Below are positions 9,955 to 14,757 of a DNA stretch of 64,000 nt, in pieces (positions within the stretch are counted from its first letter, which is position 1; each line of letters begins with the position of its first letter). Where the stretch lies: the IMG/VR virus record IMGVR_UViG_3300027780_001580, positions 32,001-96,000 of that record; one strand, written 5' to 3'. The notes under the pieces were generated by a model. That model had not been told where the DNA came from. It worked only from the letters and a program-made list of their open reading frames with translations, and searched no databases. The position numbers were made by a program, and so were the translations under genes. Origin of the DNA: a virus (Duplodnaviria > Caudoviricetes).

Positions 9955-10500
9955 TTATAGTAATTTCGCTAGTTCTGCTTTGTCCTGAGGACTAAGTGCG
10001 TCGATTGCTTTTTGGATATCTGCTGGTATACCACCTGGAGCACCACCTGGAGCACTACCGCCTGCGGCACCTCCTCCAAACTTATCACCTAAACTTGCTG
10101 GAGCCGCTTTTTGACCCACTGCCGCTTGACCTGCTTGTCCTTTAAATGAATCTTGCGAAACACCTTGTAGAATAGTGTCAACTTCTTTAGGAGTTATTGG
10201 ACCTGTCTTACCTGCTAATTGTTTTGTTGGAAGTTTTTGTTTTTGTAAAAAGTCTATAACTTCTTCTGCATTTGGCTTCTTATGGTTAGCACCTGTTTGA
10301 CCCATAAATGATCTGTACTGCGTAAATATTTCCTTTGCCCTAGCGTTAGCATCTAATCCACCTTGGATACCAGCCGCTGTTGCTTTTGCACCAACTGCGC
10401 CTGCTACTTTAGCACCTGCTTTTTTAGCTAAGTTACCAAGTACGTTGCCGCCAGGAGCCTCAGAAATAGTTGTTTCTGTTACTATCTGATTTATTTTCAT
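9955..10500 (-). CDS. Hypothetical Ala/Gly-rich late protein, possibly capsid-internal
   Basis: 181-aa ORF with AGGAG SD and a TATAAATA promoter; starts MKINQIVTETTISEAP. Confidence 0.75.
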   Translation of the reverse strand: MKINQIVTETTISEAPGGNVLGNLAKKAGAKVAGAVGAKATAAGIQGGLDANARAKEIFTQYRSFMGQTGANHKKPNAEEVIDFLQKQKLPTKQLAGKTGPITPKEVDTILQGVSQDSFKGQAGQAAVGQKAAPASLGDKFGGGAAGGSAPGGAPGGIPADIQKAIDALSPQDKAELAKLL

Positions 10501-10523
10501 AGCTTAAACTCCTTTATATAATA

Positions 10524-10531
10524 TATTTATA
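10524..10531 (-). promoter_or_regulatory. Perfect T4 late promoter TATAAATA
   Basis: Plus-strand tatttata upstream of the ATG at 10500. Confidence 0.75.
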
Positions 10532-10567
10532 CTTAATTAGTCTCAAACTAACCGTAAATACTCGACT

Positions 10568-10753
10568 ATGGTTACACATTATATTGTAATGGATGGAAAC
10601 AACACCGAAGTAGCACAAGTATACAGCTATGAAGAAGCCCTCCTAACACAGCAACAGTTAAATGTCATGAATCCCCAAGAAGAATACACTATTGTTGAAA
10701 AACAACATAGTTATATCAAAGCTGGATTCGGTCGTGATCCTGATCTACATTAA
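10568..10753 (+). CDS. Small hypothetical protein
   Basis: 61-aa ORF with GTAAATA (10554-10560) 7 nt before the ATG; ends GFGRDPDLH. Confidence 0.65.
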   Translation: MVTHYIVMDGNNTEVAQVYSYEEALLTQQQLNVMNPQEEYTIVEKQHSYIKAGFGRDPDLH

Positions 10754-10919
10754 TCGCGAGTGTCCATTAAGAATTGTATGTTAATGTATATTATTGTATT
10801 TGTGAGTGTATTGTATTGTTTGGAACAAGTACTACGTACTTGTTGTTTATCGCTATCGCTCAAACACTTCTATCTTTTATATAACAAGTGTTTATATATG
10901 AATAATATAAGTGCGAAGC

Positions 10920-11320
10920 ACTTTAGCATTATCTAGATAGTTAAGCCACAATTCGCCCGTTGCCGGACGAATTAAAAAAAGTGGAAACTCCTACATTATC
11001 TGAGTGAGCATCGCCACAACATGTTAAAGAAGATTTGTATGATATACAATGCATTCAACAATTTTAATAGTTAAATGTATAATATATAGTACAACGGAGG
11101 CGGCGTACCGCATACCCCCTACTTCAGCATTCGCAAATATACGCGGAAAGCAGTTGATCCCTAACAGTCGAAATCACTTACTCAGTGGTTGCTTTTTCTC
11201 AGAGCCACGATCTTTTATACCTAAGTTAGTATTGTCCTTGCAACTCGCTACACCCATCGACAGTATTTCATGCAGAATCTTAGCGGATCGAGCAACCCCG
11301 ATCAATCAATGTTGCTATGT
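10920..11320 (-). ncRNA. Putative large structured non-coding RNA of unknown family
   Basis: Gene-free, locally GC-richer region. Nested stems have mismatches that mostly become G-U pairs on the minus strand, with a GCAA (GNRA) loop, a UACG (UNCG) loop and two long-range helices. Boundaries are approximate. Confidence 0.6.
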
Positions 11321-11325
11321 TGTGC

Positions 11326-11748
11326 CTATATGTTTTTTAATGCTTCGATTAAGATTTTAGAACTGCCAACTCGTACATTAATGATACCGTTGTAATATTC
11401 ATCGGTCTCAAGTACTCTACGATCAAACTGTTCTTTTGCCTCTATGTAACTTAAAACGCCTCTGCTAGGACAAAAATGCAAAATTTCTCTTGTAAATTTA
11501 TCTTCGCCTAATGTTGCAACGTCTGCTAATAGCTTGTCACTAGATCCCCAATAAGTTTTCCAGTCACTTTCCTTAGTTCCACGTCTTTTATTTTTTCTGC
11601 CTTTTAGCGGCGGTTTAGTTGTTTTAAATCGGGCTAATTTTTTGCCTATGTACTTGCGGTCGTTAGTTAAGTTTGTTATCAAATATACAAAACCTTCGCA
11701 GTCTGTTGGAAGATCCTCTATTTTCTTGTTTTGATAAGTCCACTGCAT
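11326..11748 (-). CDS. Stand-alone GIY-YIG family nuclease (Seg-like catalytic domain)
   Basis: Motifs GFVYLITNLTNDRKYIGKK, YWGSS, FTREIL, catalytic-type E in SYIEAKEQF and YYN. There is no C-terminal DNA-binding domain. Confidence 0.8.
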   Translation of the reverse strand: MQWTYQNKKIEDLPTDCEGFVYLITNLTNDRKYIGKKLARFKTTKPPLKGRKNKRRGTKESDWKTYWGSSDKLLADVATLGEDKFTREILHFCPSRGVLSYIEAKEQFDRRVLETDEYYNGIINVRVGSSKILIEALKNI

Positions 11749-11772
11749 GAACTTACTTACTGTTGCCTGTGA

Positions 11773-11979
11773 TTATTGTTCTTGATTGTGGTTTGTCTTG
11801 TTAGATGTAAAGTCGTCCATGATCTCTACTCGTCGAGCAGAGCATAGTCGTCTAATTTCACTGAGCCACTTACGAGCTTCACGCTTAGTACGTTCGCTTT
11901 TACGAATTTCAAATGATTCGTTAGCTTTATAGTACCGCATGTACGCCTTTGTAAGTAGATCATGTGTATCGTCTTGCAT
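11773..11979 (-). CDS. Small basic protein, histone H1-like Hc1-related
   Basis: Motif REARKWLSEIRRLCSARRVEI resembles the phage Hc1-like R.RK.L.EI..L...RR.EI pattern. Confidence 0.5.
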   Translation of the reverse strand: MQDDTHDLLTKAYMRYYKANESFEIRKSERTKREARKWLSEIRRLCSARRVEIMDDFTSNKTNHNQEQ

Positions 11980-13748
11980 TACTGAATCTCAATATCGTTA
12001 TCGTAGCTAGTAAATCCGTTCTCTTTAATAACTTTAAGCACGTTAGTAACACGCCCAATTAATTCATCTTTGTGTGAAATTAGATATACGTTCTTATTAC
12101 GTTCTCTAGCCATCTTCTTTAAAATACTAATTGAACATTCAACACCAGCAGTATCCATACCACTATCAATAAGCTCATCGATAAACAATAAGTTAATATT
12201 CTGGTACAAACTTTCCCATACGTCACGGAATGACCAACTCATACCAAGTATAAGTCTATTACGCTCTCCTCTTGACAAGTTATCAAAGTCTAAGTCTTGT
12301 CCTAGCTGTTGTATCTCAACAGTAAGATCGTTTTTAAATACAACTGTATGCGGAAGACCGATCTTATCAAGATAGTATGTAAGTCTGTTGTTTAAGTATG
12401 CTAAGTTTTGTTCAATAATCTTTTTACGAATAAAACTATCTTTATTTGTTAACAACTTGTACAAGAAGTCTTGATGTTCTTTTTCACTAGTTAGGTCGTT
12501 AACAACTTCCCAATTAAGTTCTTGAATAGCAGTTTCATTCAAATCATCAATCTGTTCTTGATAAGGATCAAGTTCTTCTTGCTTTGCTGTTAATGCACTC
12601 TTCAAATTATCAACATTACTTCTATGCTCGTATGCTTCTTTAGCATTTTCATAAAATGTATTAGGTTTACTTTCAATATCACCTAGTTCAGAAATCTTTG
12701 TAACAACTTTATCAAACTTATCAGCAATTTCAATTAGGTATGTGTGTGCATCACCGTAATCTTTTTGTAATTTTTCTACAAGTTCTTCTAATTTGTCGTC
12801 ATGTAAGTCTTGCCCACAAGCATAACACTTTGCGTGTTCTAAATCGTCTAGTTCTTTACCAGACTTCTTCATATTCTTGTCAGCTTGTTCTAATGCACGT
12901 TCAACTGTTGATCGTTCTTTGATTAAATTGTTACTCTTGGTAGTTTTTTCTGACCAAGTACTAAGAAGATCGTGAGCTTCTAGCTCAGAGTCAATGTCTA
13001 GCTTTTCTAAATCTTTAATTGCTTTATCTAACTTGTCACAGTCTTGTTTATTTTGAGAAATCCAAGCCTTGCGCCTAGTATGCAATCGATCAATGTTTTC
13101 TTTAATTTTTTCGTTGCTTGTTGTAACTGCTTGTAGTCTAGCAGTTTCTTCTGTAAGCTGATCTTTAGTTTTTTTAGATTCTTCTCTAAGTCTGTCAGCT
13201 TTTTTAGATAATATAGTAATACCTAGTAACTGTTCAATGATCTCTCGTTGATCATTACTCTTTAATGATAGAAAGGGTTCTGTATATGTGTTTAATGCAA
13301 GTATATGCTTAAACATAGTATGACTCATGCCAAGAAGTGTGTTGATATCTTCTTGAGTCTTACGACTATCACCTTGACTTTCGTCAGTAATCTCTTGATC
13401 CTGATCATCAATACTAAATTTTAACAAATTAGGTTTACGTCCACGTTCGATATGATATTTTCTACCATCTTTTTCAAACGTAAGTGTTACCAACATCGCT
13501 TTGTTATTAGTTTTATTAACTAAATTGTCCTTGCGTATGTTAGTTAGTGCTTGGCCGTACAGAGCATATGACAACGCATTAATAATTGTTGTCTTTCCTG
13601 TACCGTTACGGCTCCCAGAATCGTCACCTCCTTGATCTAAGTTTTCACCAAGCACTAACGTCAGTTGTTCGCGGTCAAAATCAACACCTTGTGTAGAATT
13701 ACCTACACTCATAAAGTTTTTAACTGTTAATTCTTTTATCTTAATCAT
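11979..13748 (-). CDS. gp46: Recombination ATPase subunit gp46 (Rad50/SbcC-like)
   Basis: KNFMSVGN, Walker A NGTGKTT, zinc-hook CYACGQ, signature LSRGE and Walker B LLFIDE. ATG 13748 is preferred over TTG 13757. Confidence 0.95.
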   Translation of the reverse strand: MIKIKELTVKNFMSVGNSTQGVDFDREQLTLVLGENLDQGGDDSGSRNGTGKTTIINALSYALYGQALTNIRKDNLVNKTNNKAMLVTLTFEKDGRKYHIERGRKPNLLKFSIDDQDQEITDESQGDSRKTQEDINTLLGMSHTMFKHILALNTYTEPFLSLKSNDQREIIEQLLGITILSKKADRLREESKKTKDQLTEETARLQAVTTSNEKIKENIDRLHTRRKAWISQNKQDCDKLDKAIKDLEKLDIDSELEAHDLLSTWSEKTTKSNNLIKERSTVERALEQADKNMKKSGKELDDLEHAKCYACGQDLHDDKLEELVEKLQKDYGDAHTYLIEIADKFDKVVTKISELGDIESKPNTFYENAKEAYEHRSNVDNLKSALTAKQEELDPYQEQIDDLNETAIQELNWEVVNDLTSEKEHQDFLYKLLTNKDSFIRKKIIEQNLAYLNNRLTYYLDKIGLPHTVVFKNDLTVEIQQLGQDLDFDNLSRGERNRLILGMSWSFRDVWESLYQNINLLFIDELIDSGMDTAGVECSISILKKMARERNKNVYLISHKDELIGRVTNVLKVIKENGFTSYDNDIEIQ

Positions 13749-14757
13749 CTCTACCAAGCTCCCGGTATATATCTAACAGCTTTTTCTTGTCAAAGTTGTC
13801 TGATTCAATTGCTTCAATCTCTTTAGATACAATCTCGTCAACACTTTCAAACTGTGCAATGTCAATTTCACTGTTCATAGCTTCGTCTTGTGTACTTGGA
13901 ATCAGTGTAATCTCTCTGCATTCATATTCTTGAATAAATGTTTCTTTAATAAAACTTGCTTCTTCGTAACTAATAGGTAAGTCTAATGAAACTCGCAAAT
14001 ACATCTTAGGTTTAATAAGTGTATCTTTCTCATCTAATAGTCGACTTAGTTTTACAGTACGATACTTAGGGCAGTTCCACCAGTTAATATACTCAGGTTC
14101 ACCATCGTGTTCTAAAATCATCATGCCACGTTCGTCATCCCATGCATCTGCATAGTTGTGTGGCAATGCATTTCCAATATAGTGTACAGGTCCTTTAACT
14201 TGACGCTTATGAAAGTGTCCACTAAACACATATTCTTGGTGTTGGAAATGTTCTGCTCTAAGTTCTCCGTGGTCTGGCATCTGTACCATAGCATTCATAT
14301 AGAAACTAGGCAGTTCAAAGTGTCCAAATATATACTTGCTTTTAATTTTACTAATCTTTTTCCACTCATCTCCTACTAACCAAGGAACAAGTGTGCTATC
14401 ACCAATGGTCATAATTTCATTAACCATTGTAATGCCGTCAATATGTTTACCAAATGCAACAGAGTTTAAATCTCTTTTGTCTTTGTAGTATAAATCGTGG
14501 TTTCCAGGAAAGAAGTAAAAGTTTTCAAACGCTTTACCCAACTTTTCTAAAGAACGCAGAGTAGCATCAAGTGTTGTAATGTTCAAACTGTTTCTATTAT
14601 GATGCCAATCGCCCATAAAGATACCAGTCTCACAGCCAGCGGCTTGAGCTTGTTCAATGTACCAATCTATGAATTCTTCACAGTCGTCATTGTGCGTTTT
14701 TGAATTGGACTTTAGTCCAAAGTGTATGTCTGTAAAGACAGCGGCCTTTTTAAACAA
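13741..14757 (-). CDS. gp47: Recombination nuclease subunit gp47 (Mre11/SbcD-like)
   Basis: Metallophosphoesterase motifs TDIHFG, GDWHH, GNHD, GHFE and SGHFH. TTG start with GAGG SD. Confidence 0.95.
   Translation of the reverse strand: MFKKAAVFTDIHFGLKSNSKTHNDDCEEFIDWYIEQAQAAGCETGIFMGDWHHNRNSLNITTLDATLRSLEKLGKAFENFYFFPGNHDLYYKDKRDLNSVAFGKHIDGITMVNEIMTIGDSTLVPWLVGDEWKKISKIKSKYIFGHFELPSFYMNAMVQMPDHGELRAEHFQHQEYVFSGHFHKRQVKGPVHYIGNALPHNYADAWDDERGMMILEHDGEPEYINWWNCPKYRTVKLSRLLDEKDTLIKPKMYLRVSLDLPISYEEASFIKETFIQEYECREITLIPSTQDEAMNSEIDIAQFESVDEIVSKEIEAIESDNFDKKKLLDIYRELGRDD

What the first reader, a model, noticed from the sequence alone, without database searches (positions are those of the whole stretch)
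10920..11748. Large structured RNA directly downstream of a minimal GIY-YIG nuclease: candidate nuclease-ncRNA system
Seen: the region after the nuclease stop (11326) folds on the same minus strand into nested domains. GCAAC/GTTGC (11311-15 with 11240-44) encloses GATCGGG-GTTG-CTCGATC (11286-11303) and CGCTA/TAGCG. There is a GTGG..CCAC hairpin (11185-11208) and two long-range helices: CTGAGTAAGT/GCTCACTCAG (11176-85 with 11000-09) and TGTTAGGGA/TCTTTAACA (11158-66 with 11022-30, two G-U). Also present are GCGG-UACG-CCGC (11100-11) inside GGGG/CTCC and AATTCGTCCG-GCAA-CGGGCGAATT (10950-73). Most mismatches become G-U wobbles and the loops become GNRA/UNCG only on the minus strand, which points to RNA-level structure. 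An AT-rich, insert-like hairpin region (11035-11093) sits inside the fold. The 140-aa nuclease has no DNA-binding domain but carries a K/R-rich insertion (KTTKPPLKGRKNKRRGTK). Known: HNH/IscB nucleases pair with HEARO/omega RNAs; I know of no GIY-YIG equivalent. Inference: this could be an RNP or RNA-guided nuclease, or an unrelated phage RNA such as an R-loop replication primer.
Basis: partly seen in the sequence, partly recalled or inferred. Interest (0 to 1): 0.85.

Follow-up and report, generated by a model that had tools for sequence, protein, structure and literature searches.

The report
Large phage RNA beside mobile nuclease
Just after a small DNA-cutting enzyme gene, this marine T4-like phage carries a roughly 500-base, intricately folded RNA gene from a large and mostly undescribed phage RNA family, and the enzyme looks like a mobile neighbour of that gene, not an RNA-guided partner.

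Summary
Window 10823-11325 (minus strand) is a ~500-nt structured RNA with at least 15 helices and two pseudoknots. On 36 related sequences, 77% of cells pair against 63% in shuffles (0/500), and 468 cells carry double changes against 174. Rfam has no match in the window. Five relatives carry the orphan motif Polynucleobacter-1 (RF01718) at the same spot, and they share the window's 3' half (E 6e-22).

The nuclease is a SegE-type GIY-YIG catalytic domain with no DNA-binding domain. It lies directly upstream of the RNA in 87 of 102 evaluable loci. Each still occurs without the other. Phage Melnitz has an 80%-identical nuclease, a gp46 only 27% identical, and no such RNA. Eight loci have the RNA but no nuclease. 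Nuclease clades and RNA subtypes are reshuffled.

Best reading (0.55): an autonomous phage RNA gene flanked by a mobile Seg-type nuclease, as SegB sits among T4 tRNA genes. An RNA-guided nuclease is unlikely (about 0.1). The RNA's function is unknown.

The parts
11326..11748 (-). 140-aa SegE-type GIY-YIG nuclease: catalytic domain only, with a basic beta-hairpin insertion at residues ~38-59
   Evidence: Pfam PF19835 at E 1.2e-34. The AlphaFold2 model has pLDDT 91.5 and is nearest to the I-TevI catalytic domain. The GIY, YIG, R, E and N motif residues (motif labels recalled) are conserved in 145 distinct homologues.
10823..11325 (-). Structured non-coding RNA gene, ~500 nt ('W type')
   Evidence: Covariation on A3 and A5. 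nhmmer profiles and model R1 find a single copy. RNA-library contigs bridge the nuclease gene into this stretch.
11240..11315 (-). 5' domain: three-way junction made of H1 (11315-11311:11244-11240), H2 (11303-11297:11292-11286) and H3 (11285-11281:11250-11246). It varies among RNA subtypes.
   Evidence: helices 1-3: 68-76% of cells paired, with double changes in 3, 5 and 3 pairs.
11185..11232 (-). H4 hairpin (11232-11229:11220-11217) and H5 hairpin (11208-11205:11188-11185), which carries a 16-nt loop, CUCUGAGAAAAAGCAA
   Evidence: H5 is 99.3% paired with 5 pair types. The loop's invariance comes partly from ascertainment, because it served as the search pattern.
11096..11183 (-). Central pseudoknotted core: H6 (11183-11173:11158-11148), helix X (11144-11139:11108-11103), and helix Y (11119-11116:11099-11096), which crosses X
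   Evidence: X is 97.6% paired, Y 97.9% and H6 79.2%. X also stood out in an unbiased scan of column pairs, with 13-14 extra pair types.
11022..11166 (-). Long-range helices H7 (11166-11160:11028-11022, loop of H6 to downstream strand) and H8 (11125-11122:11032-11029)
   Evidence: H7 is 87.3% paired and H8 98.6%, with double changes in 5 of 7 and 4 of 4 pairs.
11036..11093 (-).
   Evidence: The closing stem is 96% paired with 4 pair types per position. Loop length is 1-50 nt, median 5. There is no second match in the 125.8-kb record.
10823..11021 (-). 3' domain shared by the W, II and Polynucleobacter-1-type RNAs. It holds two ~25-nt direct repeats (about 11019-10994 and 10950-10927), H10 (11017-11014:10984-10981, mostly gapped in A3 and left unscored), H11 with a GCAA loop (10973-10964:10959-10950), H12 with a UUCG-type loop (10923-10919:10913-10909), H14 (10865-10862:10848-10845) with the loop GAGCGAUAGCGA, and the terminal hairpin H15 (10843-10836:10832-10825).
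   Evidence: Model R1 scores it at E 5e-24. On A5, H11 is 91.8% paired and H15 94.7%, and the covariation score is 0.534 against 0.158. The P-type profile hits 11110-10847 at E 6e-22.
11773..11979 (-). orf68, a small conserved ORF between gp46 and the nuclease, covered by the same RNA-library contig
   Evidence: Synteny in most gp46-context loci. The X1 contig spans 12167-11115.
11979..13757 (-). gp46-like Rad50/SbcC ATPase, the upstream anchor of the conserved locus
   Evidence: Pfam AAA_23, SMC_N and Rad50 zinc hook. Synteny.

Best explanation
Window 10823-11325 (minus strand) is a real gene for a ~500-nt, multi-domain, pseudoknotted non-coding RNA. It belongs to a large family found at this locus in uncultured aquatic T4-like phages. 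The Rfam motif Polynucleobacter-1 corresponds to the 5' half of one subtype of that family.

The RNA stretch lies in the same RNA-library contigs as the upstream orf68 and nuclease genes. I read it as acting on its own, as an RNA or RNP machine of unknown role.

The 140-aa GIY-YIG protein is a horizontally mobile Seg-type nuclease gene that has settled next to this conserved RNA gene, as SegB sits among the T4 tRNA genes. Such a nuclease would cut alleles that lack it or differ from it, and so favour inheritance, and possibly amplification, of itself together with the adjacent RNA locus.

Shown: the RNA structure, the family, the linkage, the independence of RNA and nuclease, and the mobility of the nuclease gene. 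Inferred: homing activity, co-transcription and the RNA's autonomy. Unknown: the RNA's molecular function.
For: Structure. See for the covariation counts. G-U pairs read correctly only on the minus strand; for example, the U-G pair in H11 would be C-A on the plus strand.

Family. The 19-nt H5 motif gave at least 119 IMG/VR loci, and 116 of the 119 fetched are real RNA loci. In 596 Gb of bacterial and archaeal genomes the same motif gave 69 hits, about the chance expectation by my own arithmetic, and only 1 of the 69 is real. RF01718 scores 59-108 bits right after the nuclease in 5 loci, and these share the window's 3' half.

Linkage. 87 of 102 evaluable loci have the nuclease directly upstream on the same strand. 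That includes 8 loci where the nuclease-RNA unit is inverted relative to gp46.

Independence and mobility.
- The Melnitz nuclease is 80% identical while its gp46 is 27% identical. There the nuclease sits after nrdB, and the complete genome gives no RNA hit.
- Syn9 has a homologue after nrdB and next to a tRNA gene.
- The RNA occurs without the nuclease in 8 loci. One of these carries a PDDEXK endonuclease instead.
- Metabolic genes are inserted between nuclease and RNA in 5 loci.
- The 25 nearest relatives of the window's nuclease carry other RNA subtypes.

Precedent. T4 SegB lies in the tRNA cluster and drives preferred inheritance of that region (PMC2330249, abstract start in the search listing). 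SegB homologues co-localise with tRNA genes and amplify the neighbouring segment (PMC13096335, abstract and section 10).

Expression. 14 metatranscriptome runs from 7 studies hold part of the stretch. Contigs bridge gp46's 3' end, orf68, the nuclease and the RNA (X1, 12167-11115). A second contig bridges the nuclease and the RNA (X6, 11648-11082) and carries an A-rich tail after 11082 on the minus strand.
Against: The nuclease is present in nearly every gp46-context locus: 70 with gp46 upstream, and only L145 lacks it. It is under strong purifying selection, with 80% amino-acid but 71% nucleotide identity to Melnitz. That is less patchy than a typical selfish homing gene.

It has no DNA-binding domain, so site-specific homing is unproven.

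Adjacency is kept in three different arrangements, which also fits a functional pair.

No allele with the RNA directly after orf68 and no nuclease was found.

The RNA-only records are fragments, 4-14% complete, so a nuclease elsewhere in those genomes is not excluded.

The RNA libraries may contain DNA, and the contigs cannot show strand or ends, apart from the single tailed contig.
Confidence: 0.55

Rival explanations
1. The nuclease and the RNA form a functional ribonucleoprotein. The RNA would scaffold, guide or regulate a GIY-YIG domain that has no DNA-binding domain of its own, and the basic beta-hairpin insertion would bind the RNA.
For: Tight same-strand adjacency in 87 of 102 loci. Adjacency survives inversion relative to gp46 and a swap of gene order. 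The protein is a bare catalytic domain with a conserved K/R-rich insertion that T4 SegE lacks. The RNA has conserved loops that could bind a protein. One RNA-library contig covers both genes.
Against: The complete Melnitz genome has the nuclease at 80% identity but no RNA. Syn9 and FelixO1-like homologues stand without it. Eight RNA loci have no nuclease. RNA subtypes are reshuffled against nuclease clades. No variable guide-like segment was found: the only hypervariable part is a hairpin extension with no target match. I recall no RNA-guided GIY-YIG enzyme, and searches found none.
Confidence: 0.1
2. The RNA is a cis-acting part of the early or middle transcript that ends here. It would be a 3' UTR that stabilises, terminates or tunes the orf68-nuclease mRNA, or that insulates it from the converging late genes.
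For: The RNA starts within a few bases of the nuclease stop codon and is bridged to the ORFs by RNA-library contigs. It lies where the minus-strand unit meets a plus-strand ORF (10568-10753). One contig has an A-rich tail after 11082. Weinberg et al. rated Polynucleobacter-1 as likely cis-regulatory (PMC2864571, table passage).
Against: Five hundred nucleotides with two pseudoknots and long-range helices is far more than a terminator or stabiliser needs. The same RNA follows unrelated genes (a 369-aa ORF, a methyltransferase, IMPDH/GMP reductase). In some loci its 3' domain precedes the nuclease. No canonical terminator lies at its end.
Confidence: 0.15
3. The RNA serves DNA replication, for example as an origin transcript or primer like ColE1 RNA II or the T4 oriF/oriG R-loop RNAs.
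For: It lies next to the recombination and replication genes gp46 and gp47. It has two direct repeats that change in concert, which resembles iterons. An RNA 3' end maps inside an AT-rich stretch.
Against: The AT-rich stretch is a lineage-specific hairpin expansion that most relatives lack. The repeats lie inside covarying RNA helices with GNRA and UUCG loops. Nothing here ties the RNA to replication.
Confidence: 0.05

Closest known systems
Polynucleobacter-1 RNA motif (Rfam RF01718; Weinberg et al. 2010, PMC2864571)
   Same: It occupies the same genomic slot, immediately after the same nuclease, in 5 related loci. Those RNAs share the window's 3' half (E 6e-22; R1 hits). By eye, the junction loops look similar (CACUA...CGAAG against CUCUGAGAAAAAG).
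   Different: The window does not match RF01718 at E<=10. The Rfam model covers 141 nt, whereas this RNA is about 500 nt with an extra conserved 3' domain. Rfam lists the motif for Burkholderiales and fresh water as a possible cis-regulator; here it is phage-borne.
T4 SegB endonuclease within the tRNA gene cluster (PMC2330249; PMC13096335)
   Same: A Seg-type GIY-YIG gene sits beside structured-RNA genes in a T4-like phage. The nuclease is horizontally mobile. Linkage to RNA genes is statistically strong.
   Different: SegB carries a DNA-binding part and its cleavage has been demonstrated. This protein is a 140-aa bare catalytic domain of the SegE Pfam family and is untested. Its neighbour is a large RNA of unknown function, not a set of tRNAs.
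IscB/TnpB with omega RNA (HEARO)
   Same: A large structured RNA is encoded next to a small nuclease gene on the same strand.
   Different: The nuclease fold differs (GIY-YIG, not RuvC/HNH). There are no transposon ends, no guide segment and no Rfam HEARO match. The RNA and the nuclease occur independently.
Large ornate phage-associated RNAs GOLLD and ROOL (bioRxiv 10.1101/2024.12.08.627333, search listing only)
   Same: Several hundred nucleotides, many helices and pseudoknots, phage-borne, function unknown.
   Different: No Rfam match to either. It lies next to a nuclease and gp46, not in the tRNA-rich neighbourhood that I recall for those RNAs.
I-TevI / T4 SegE GIY-YIG homing endonucleases
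   Same: The catalytic domain is the same (Pfam SegE_GIY-YIG). The best fold matches are 1LN0 and 1MK0.
   Different: It lacks the linker and the C-terminal DNA-binding domain. It has a 20-residue basic insertion relative to SegE. It is not intron-encoded.

Membership tests
Rfam RF01718 Polynucleobacter-1 | Covariance-model score at or above the gathering score (37 bits) | tested here: not met
   No RF01718 match in the window at gathering or at E<=10 on 10500-12000. Five related loci score 59-108 bits.
Rfam RF01718 Polynucleobacter-1 | Homology to loci that do carry the motif | tested here: met
   An nhmmer profile built from the 5 P-type loci hits window 11110-10847 at E 6e-22. Model R1 finds the shared 3' domain in all 5.
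Structured non-coding RNA (general) | Helices kept through compensatory changes above controls | tested here: met
   0 of 500 shuffles reach the observed pairing, double-change count or covariation score, and slid partners score 3-5 times lower.
Structured non-coding RNA (general) | Transcript on the predicted strand with defined ends | tested here: inconclusive
   Contigs from 4 RNA libraries cover the region, and one carries an A-rich tail after 11082 on the minus strand. Contigs cannot show strand, ends or level, and DNA carry-over is possible.
Free-standing GIY-YIG homing endonuclease (Seg family) | GIY-YIG catalytic domain with conserved catalytic residues | tested here: met
   Pfam SegE_GIY-YIG at E 1.2e-34. 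Motif residues are conserved in 145 sequences. The fold is nearest to I-TevI.
Free-standing GIY-YIG homing endonuclease (Seg family) | Separate DNA-binding domain that gives site specificity | tested here: not met
   The protein is 140 aa and the Pfam domain covers residues 3-123. T4 SegE has about 120 further residues.
Free-standing GIY-YIG homing endonuclease (Seg family) | Horizontal mobility: the gene is far more similar than its genomic background, and it sits in different contexts | tested here: met
   Nuclease 80% against gp46 27% identity to Melnitz. Contexts include after gp46, after nrdB, and inverted.
Free-standing GIY-YIG homing endonuclease (Seg family) | Cleavage of the nuclease-free allele and gene conversion | not testable with these tools
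   Needs purified protein and mixed infections.
RNA-guided nuclease systems (IscB/TnpB-omega RNA type) | Obligate co-occurrence of nuclease and RNA | tested here: not met
   Melnitz has the nuclease but no RNA. Eight RNA loci have no nuclease.
RNA-guided nuclease systems (IscB/TnpB-omega RNA type) | Variable guide segment matching targets | tested here: not met
   The only hypervariable segment is the H9 hairpin loop, which has no other match in the record. The complement of the H5 loop has no target above chance in the window.
Group I intron with GIY-YIG ORF | Intron core and flanking exons | tested here: not met
   No Rfam intron match at E<=10. No split host gene: orf68 and the downstream ORFs are complete.

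The most novel reading that the evidence does not exclude
The bare GIY-YIG domain works with this RNA. The conserved 3' domain or the invariant loops would dock on the basic beta-hairpin, and the RNA would supply target recognition or allosteric control. That would be the first RNA-dependent GIY-YIG nuclease. Melnitz-type copies would then be a secondarily RNA-free branch.
Probability: 0.08. Interest if true: 0.95.

Novelty: new variant of a known kind. Interest (0 to 1): 0.58.

Why it matters
RNAs of about 500 nt with pseudoknots and long-range helices are rare. In earlier cases they turned out to be ribozymes, guide RNAs or unusual RNA assemblies.

This family is abundant: hundreds of phage contigs carry it, and metatranscriptome libraries from 7 studies hold part of the stretch. 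It looks phage-specific. It also gives the orphan Rfam motif Polynucleobacter-1 a genomic home (T4-like phages), a fuller architecture and a fixed neighbour.

It extends the recently described link between Seg endonucleases and tRNA genes to a different kind of RNA gene. That yields a testable idea: the nuclease promotes inheritance or amplification of a beneficial RNA locus.

Tried and rejected
- Single-sequence folding gives z-scores too weak to discriminate the strands or to prove structure.
- tRNA/tmRNA scan: none found.
- blastn of the window RNA and of a type-II RNA against 50,697 cultured phage records: no match.
- RF01718 in the window's whole record, Melnitz and three other records: none.
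- Search for a target complementary to the H5 loop in the window: 1 non-self hit with 3 mismatches, within chance.
- Search for a second copy or target of the AT-rich insert: only itself.
- Sigma-70 promoter and terminator scans: not above shuffles, and no canonical terminator at the RNA's end.
- Two RNA contigs stop at 12167. The upstream sequence shows no convincing promoter, and the stop may be an assembly branch point, so I make no claim from it.
- Contig depths (for example 252 for X1 12167-11115, against 3-5 for contigs over the 3' domain) cannot rank parts of a transcript. Parts without cover are not evidence. I set both aside.
- T4 DenA (EndoII) as the nuclease's homologue: no sequence similarity. 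Only the shared position after nrdB in Melnitz, Syn9 and T4 remains as a lead.
- Nuclease search in five RNA-only records: none found, but the records are 4-14% complete, so this is uninformative.
- RNAalifold on long MAFFT alignments missed most helices. mafft-qinsi is not installed.
- H13 (10940-10935:10875-10870) is only 50% paired, so I dropped it as unsupported. H15 scored 29.5% on A3 through misalignment but 94.7% on the model-fitted A5.
- Literature searches for a described nuclease-RNA pair or for this motif found nothing specific. One paper predicts 8,495 candidate structured RNAs in IMG/VR (PMC10690425, passages) and may list this family in supplements I could not see.
Full report
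WHAT IS THERE

The window comes from a 125.8-kb IMG/VR virus record of a marine T4-like myophage. On the minus strand the gene order is:
- a gp47-like gene, 13741-14757 (named by gene order and its Melnitz counterpart; I did not scan it)
- gp46-like Rad50/SbcC, 11979-13757
- orf68, 11773-11979
- a 140-aa ORF, 11326-11748
- about 570 nt with no conserved ORF

After that come a conserved plus-strand 61-aa ORF (10568-10753) and further minus-strand genes, the next of which has a T4-type late-promoter-like box (consensus recalled) and a ribosome-binding site just upstream.

The 140-aa protein matches Pfam SegE_GIY-YIG over the whole profile (E 1.2e-34). Its motif residues are conserved in 145 distinct homologues. 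It folds with pLDDT 91.5, and its best PDB matches are the I-TevI catalytic domain (Foldseek E 0.3, TMt 0.65, so weak). It has no DNA-binding domain. Relative to T4 SegE it carries a 20-residue K/R-rich insertion, which is modelled as a beta-hairpin. That insertion is typical of the whole short subfamily, including cyanophage Syn9 gp202.

IS THE RNA REAL?

A single-sequence fold is unconvincing, with z of -1.86 on the minus strand and -1.56 on the plus strand. Rfam gives nothing: 0 matches at gathering in the window, and three chance-level matches at E<=10.

Comparison settles it. A search with the nuclease found at least 596 IMG/VR loci, of which the best 80 were kept. The non-coding stretch downstream is nearly identical in the closest relatives, except for a 45-nt AT-rich piece that only the window has. 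In more distant relatives it is recognisably homologous, with compensatory changes.

A 19-nt pattern from one hairpin loop then gave at least 119 further loci without reference to the nuclease. Three of the 119 are chance hits inside coding sequence.

I aligned the window with 35 of these. They were chosen as the distinct sequences with at least 320 profile positions covered and a full 510 nt available. The rest were dropped for lower coverage, duplication or contig ends. On this alignment a 17-helix model pairs 77.1% of 3224 cells against 63.4% in shuffles (0/500). It has 468 double-change cells against 174, and a covariation score of 0.360 against 0.155. Partners slid by 1-3 columns score 0.076-0.125.

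The strongest helices are:
- H5, 99.3% paired
- X, 97.6%
- H8, 98.6%
- Y, 97.9%
- H9, 96.0%
- H7, 87.3%
- H11, 88.8%

X crosses Y, and H7 crosses H6, so the RNA has two pseudoknots. The invariance of the H5 loop is partly an artefact of using it as the search pattern.

A covariance model of the 3' domain was built from the window plus 38 of 45 thinned seed sequences spanning three subtypes. Its own alignment of 44 matches is 88.0% paired against 62.7%, with a covariation score of 0.534 against 0.158. That alignment is fitted to the model and leans towards it.

G-U pairs and the GNRA and UUCG loops read correctly only on the minus strand.

Six of eight are supported. The proposed long helix 11185-11176 with 11009-11000 pairs in only 49% of cells. 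The inner GCGG-UACG-CCGC hairpin pairs in 69% of cells with no double changes. Those bases belong instead to H6 and to pseudoknot helix X.

The RNA ends near 10823, not 10920.

The 'AT-rich insert' is the loop of hairpin H9. It is 50 nt here, with a median of 5 nt and often a GNRA tetraloop in relatives. It has no other match in the record.

WHAT FAMILY?

There are several subtypes at the same locus:
- the window's 'W' type
- a 'type II'
- a type in more distant gp46 contexts
- a type whose 5' half is the Rfam motif Polynucleobacter-1 (RF01718), scoring 59-108 bits in L006, L020, L027, L028 and L071. Seven other loci tested give no match.

All four share the 3' domain. Model R1 hits 44 of 80 nuclease-first loci at E<=0.01. 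A profile made only from the five Polynucleobacter-1-type loci hits window 11110-10847 at E 6e-22.

Weinberg et al. 2010 list Polynucleobacter-1 as a likely RNA, possibly cis-regulatory, from Burkholderiales and fresh water (PMC2864571, table passage). No function is known.

The family looks phage-specific. The same 19-nt pattern gave 69 hits in 596 Gb of bacterial and archaeal genomes, about the number I calculate for chance. Only one of the 69 (L245, which also carries the nuclease) is real. No cultured phage matches by blastn.

RELATION TO THE NUCLEASE

Among the 119 motif-first loci, 3 are chance hits and 14 lie too near a contig end. Of the 102 evaluable loci:
- 87 have the nuclease ending 111-227 nt upstream of the motif on the same strand. 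Of these, 70 have gp46 upstream, 8 have the unit inverted relative to gp46, and 9 have no gp46 in the locus.
- 5 have it 400-2500 nt upstream with other genes inserted in between, such as IMPDH/GMP reductase and a methyltransferase.
- 2 have it on the opposite strand.
- 8 have none. One of these carries a PDDEXK endonuclease instead.

In another group of loci the RNA's 3' domain lies immediately upstream of the nuclease. Six hits pass E<=0.01, and nine weaker ones sit at the same place.

Conversely, phage Melnitz has the nuclease at 80% identity but a gp46 only 27% identical. There the nuclease sits after nrdB. Its complete 141.5-kb genome gives no hit with R1 or with six nhmmer profiles that all but one find the window. 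Syn9 has a homologue after nrdB and next to a tRNA gene, and no R1 hit.

On a tree of 177 nucleases, the RNA subtype changes 18 times. The five shuffles I printed gave 66-69 changes. The window's 25 nearest nucleases carry other subtypes, none of them W. The sample is biased by how the loci were collected.

The two genes are therefore strongly linked, but separable and recombining. The nuclease gene moves between distantly related phages.

EXPRESSION

Fourteen metatranscriptome runs from 7 studies hold 23-56% of the sampled words of 10400-12400. Four runs were laid as contigs:
- X1 has one contig that covers exactly 12167-11115: the gp46 3' end, orf68, the nuclease and 210 nt of the RNA.
- X6 has a contig covering 11648-11082. 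It ends in an A-rich tail on the minus strand after 11082, inside the H9 loop.
- X5 and X8 have contigs over the 3' domain (10803-11090 and 10766-11111).

Contigs cannot give strand, ends or level, and DNA may be present in these libraries. This is a hint of a minus-strand transcript, and of a 3' end or processing site in the H9 loop, and no more than that.

MOST LIKELY MECHANISM

An autonomous, large structured RNA gene of unknown function sits at the end of the replication-and-recombination gene block. The RNA-library contigs suggest it is transcribed together with the genes upstream. Beside it lies a mobile Seg-type GIY-YIG gene.

The closest precedent is T4 SegB, which lies within the tRNA cluster and secures preferred inheritance of that region (PMC2330249, abstract start in the listing). 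Its homologues co-localise with tRNA genes and can amplify the adjacent segment (PMC13096335, abstract and section 10).

I put this reading at 0.55. The near-universal presence of the nuclease at this locus, its strong conservation and its lack of a DNA-binding domain keep an RNP reading alive at about 0.1. A cis-acting 3' UTR role gets 0.15 and a replication role 0.05. The rest is unassigned.

NOVELTY

The 5' half of one subtype is a known orphan motif. I did not find the following in print in searches:
- the full ~500-nt architecture
- the W subtype
- the phage origin
- the fixed nuclease neighbour

Supplements of PMC10690425, which predicts 8,495 candidate RNAs in IMG/VR, could not be read and may list it.

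Noticed in passing
window 10568-10753 (+): A 61-aa ORF on the opposite strand, converging on the RNA, is conserved at 34-48% identity in many related loci and shows a codon-like substitution pattern. It has no Pfam or PHROG match.
   Followed up: partly
window ~10505-10535 (-): A TATAAATA box, which I recall as the T4 late-promoter consensus, followed by AAGGAG and the ATG of the 181-aa ORF, is invariant among the closest relatives. The gene after the RNA therefore has its own late-promoter-like signal.
   Followed up: no
L003-L082 (IMG/VR contigs): 15 of the 80 nuclease-first contigs end 0-450 nt after the nuclease stop, that is, inside the RNA gene. This looks like an assembly breakpoint where conserved and hypervariable segments meet.
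   Followed up: no
window 11019-10994 and 10950-10927 (-): Two ~25-nt direct repeats in the 3' domain (UUGUGGC...CU.AGAUAAUG) change in concert between lineages: AGAUAAUG, ACAUGAAG, GAAUAAUG, ACAUGAUG. No pairing partner that would explain this was found.
   Followed up: partly
L105, L106, L152, L182, L192, L199 (5' of the RNA): In RNA loci that lack the nuclease, the RNA is preceded by three or four AGGCA repeats about 9 nt apart. In the window a single AUAGGCA overlaps the nuclease stop codon. This could be a processing or binding site.
   Followed up: no
L101, L107, L145: The slot between gp46/nuclease and the RNA takes up other genes: IMPDH/GMP reductase and a 142-aa ORF (L101), a SAM methyltransferase (L107), or a PDDEXK endonuclease and DUF5856 in place of the GIY-YIG gene (L145).
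   Followed up: partly
L023, L025, L031-L033, L035, L043 (about 300-460 nt after the nuclease): In loci where the nuclease faces gp46, a small opposite-strand ORF follows the nuclease. After it comes a second conserved structured-looking non-coding block containing GGUACGUUAAGGUCUAACCCACC, which recalls the window's pseudoknot region.
   Followed up: no
L001 (Melnitz), L202 (Syn9), L203 (T4): The SegE-type short nuclease sits just after nrdB in Melnitz and near nrdB in Syn9. That is the position T4 gives to denA (EndoII), which is an unrelated GIY-YIG sequence of similar size (BLASTP E 1.1).
   Followed up: partly
PHROG 447 and GenBank records: This nuclease family is widely annotated as 'NAD synthetase' in cyanophage and FelixO1-like genomes. 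That looks like a propagated mis-annotation, given the SegE_GIY-YIG match.
   Followed up: no
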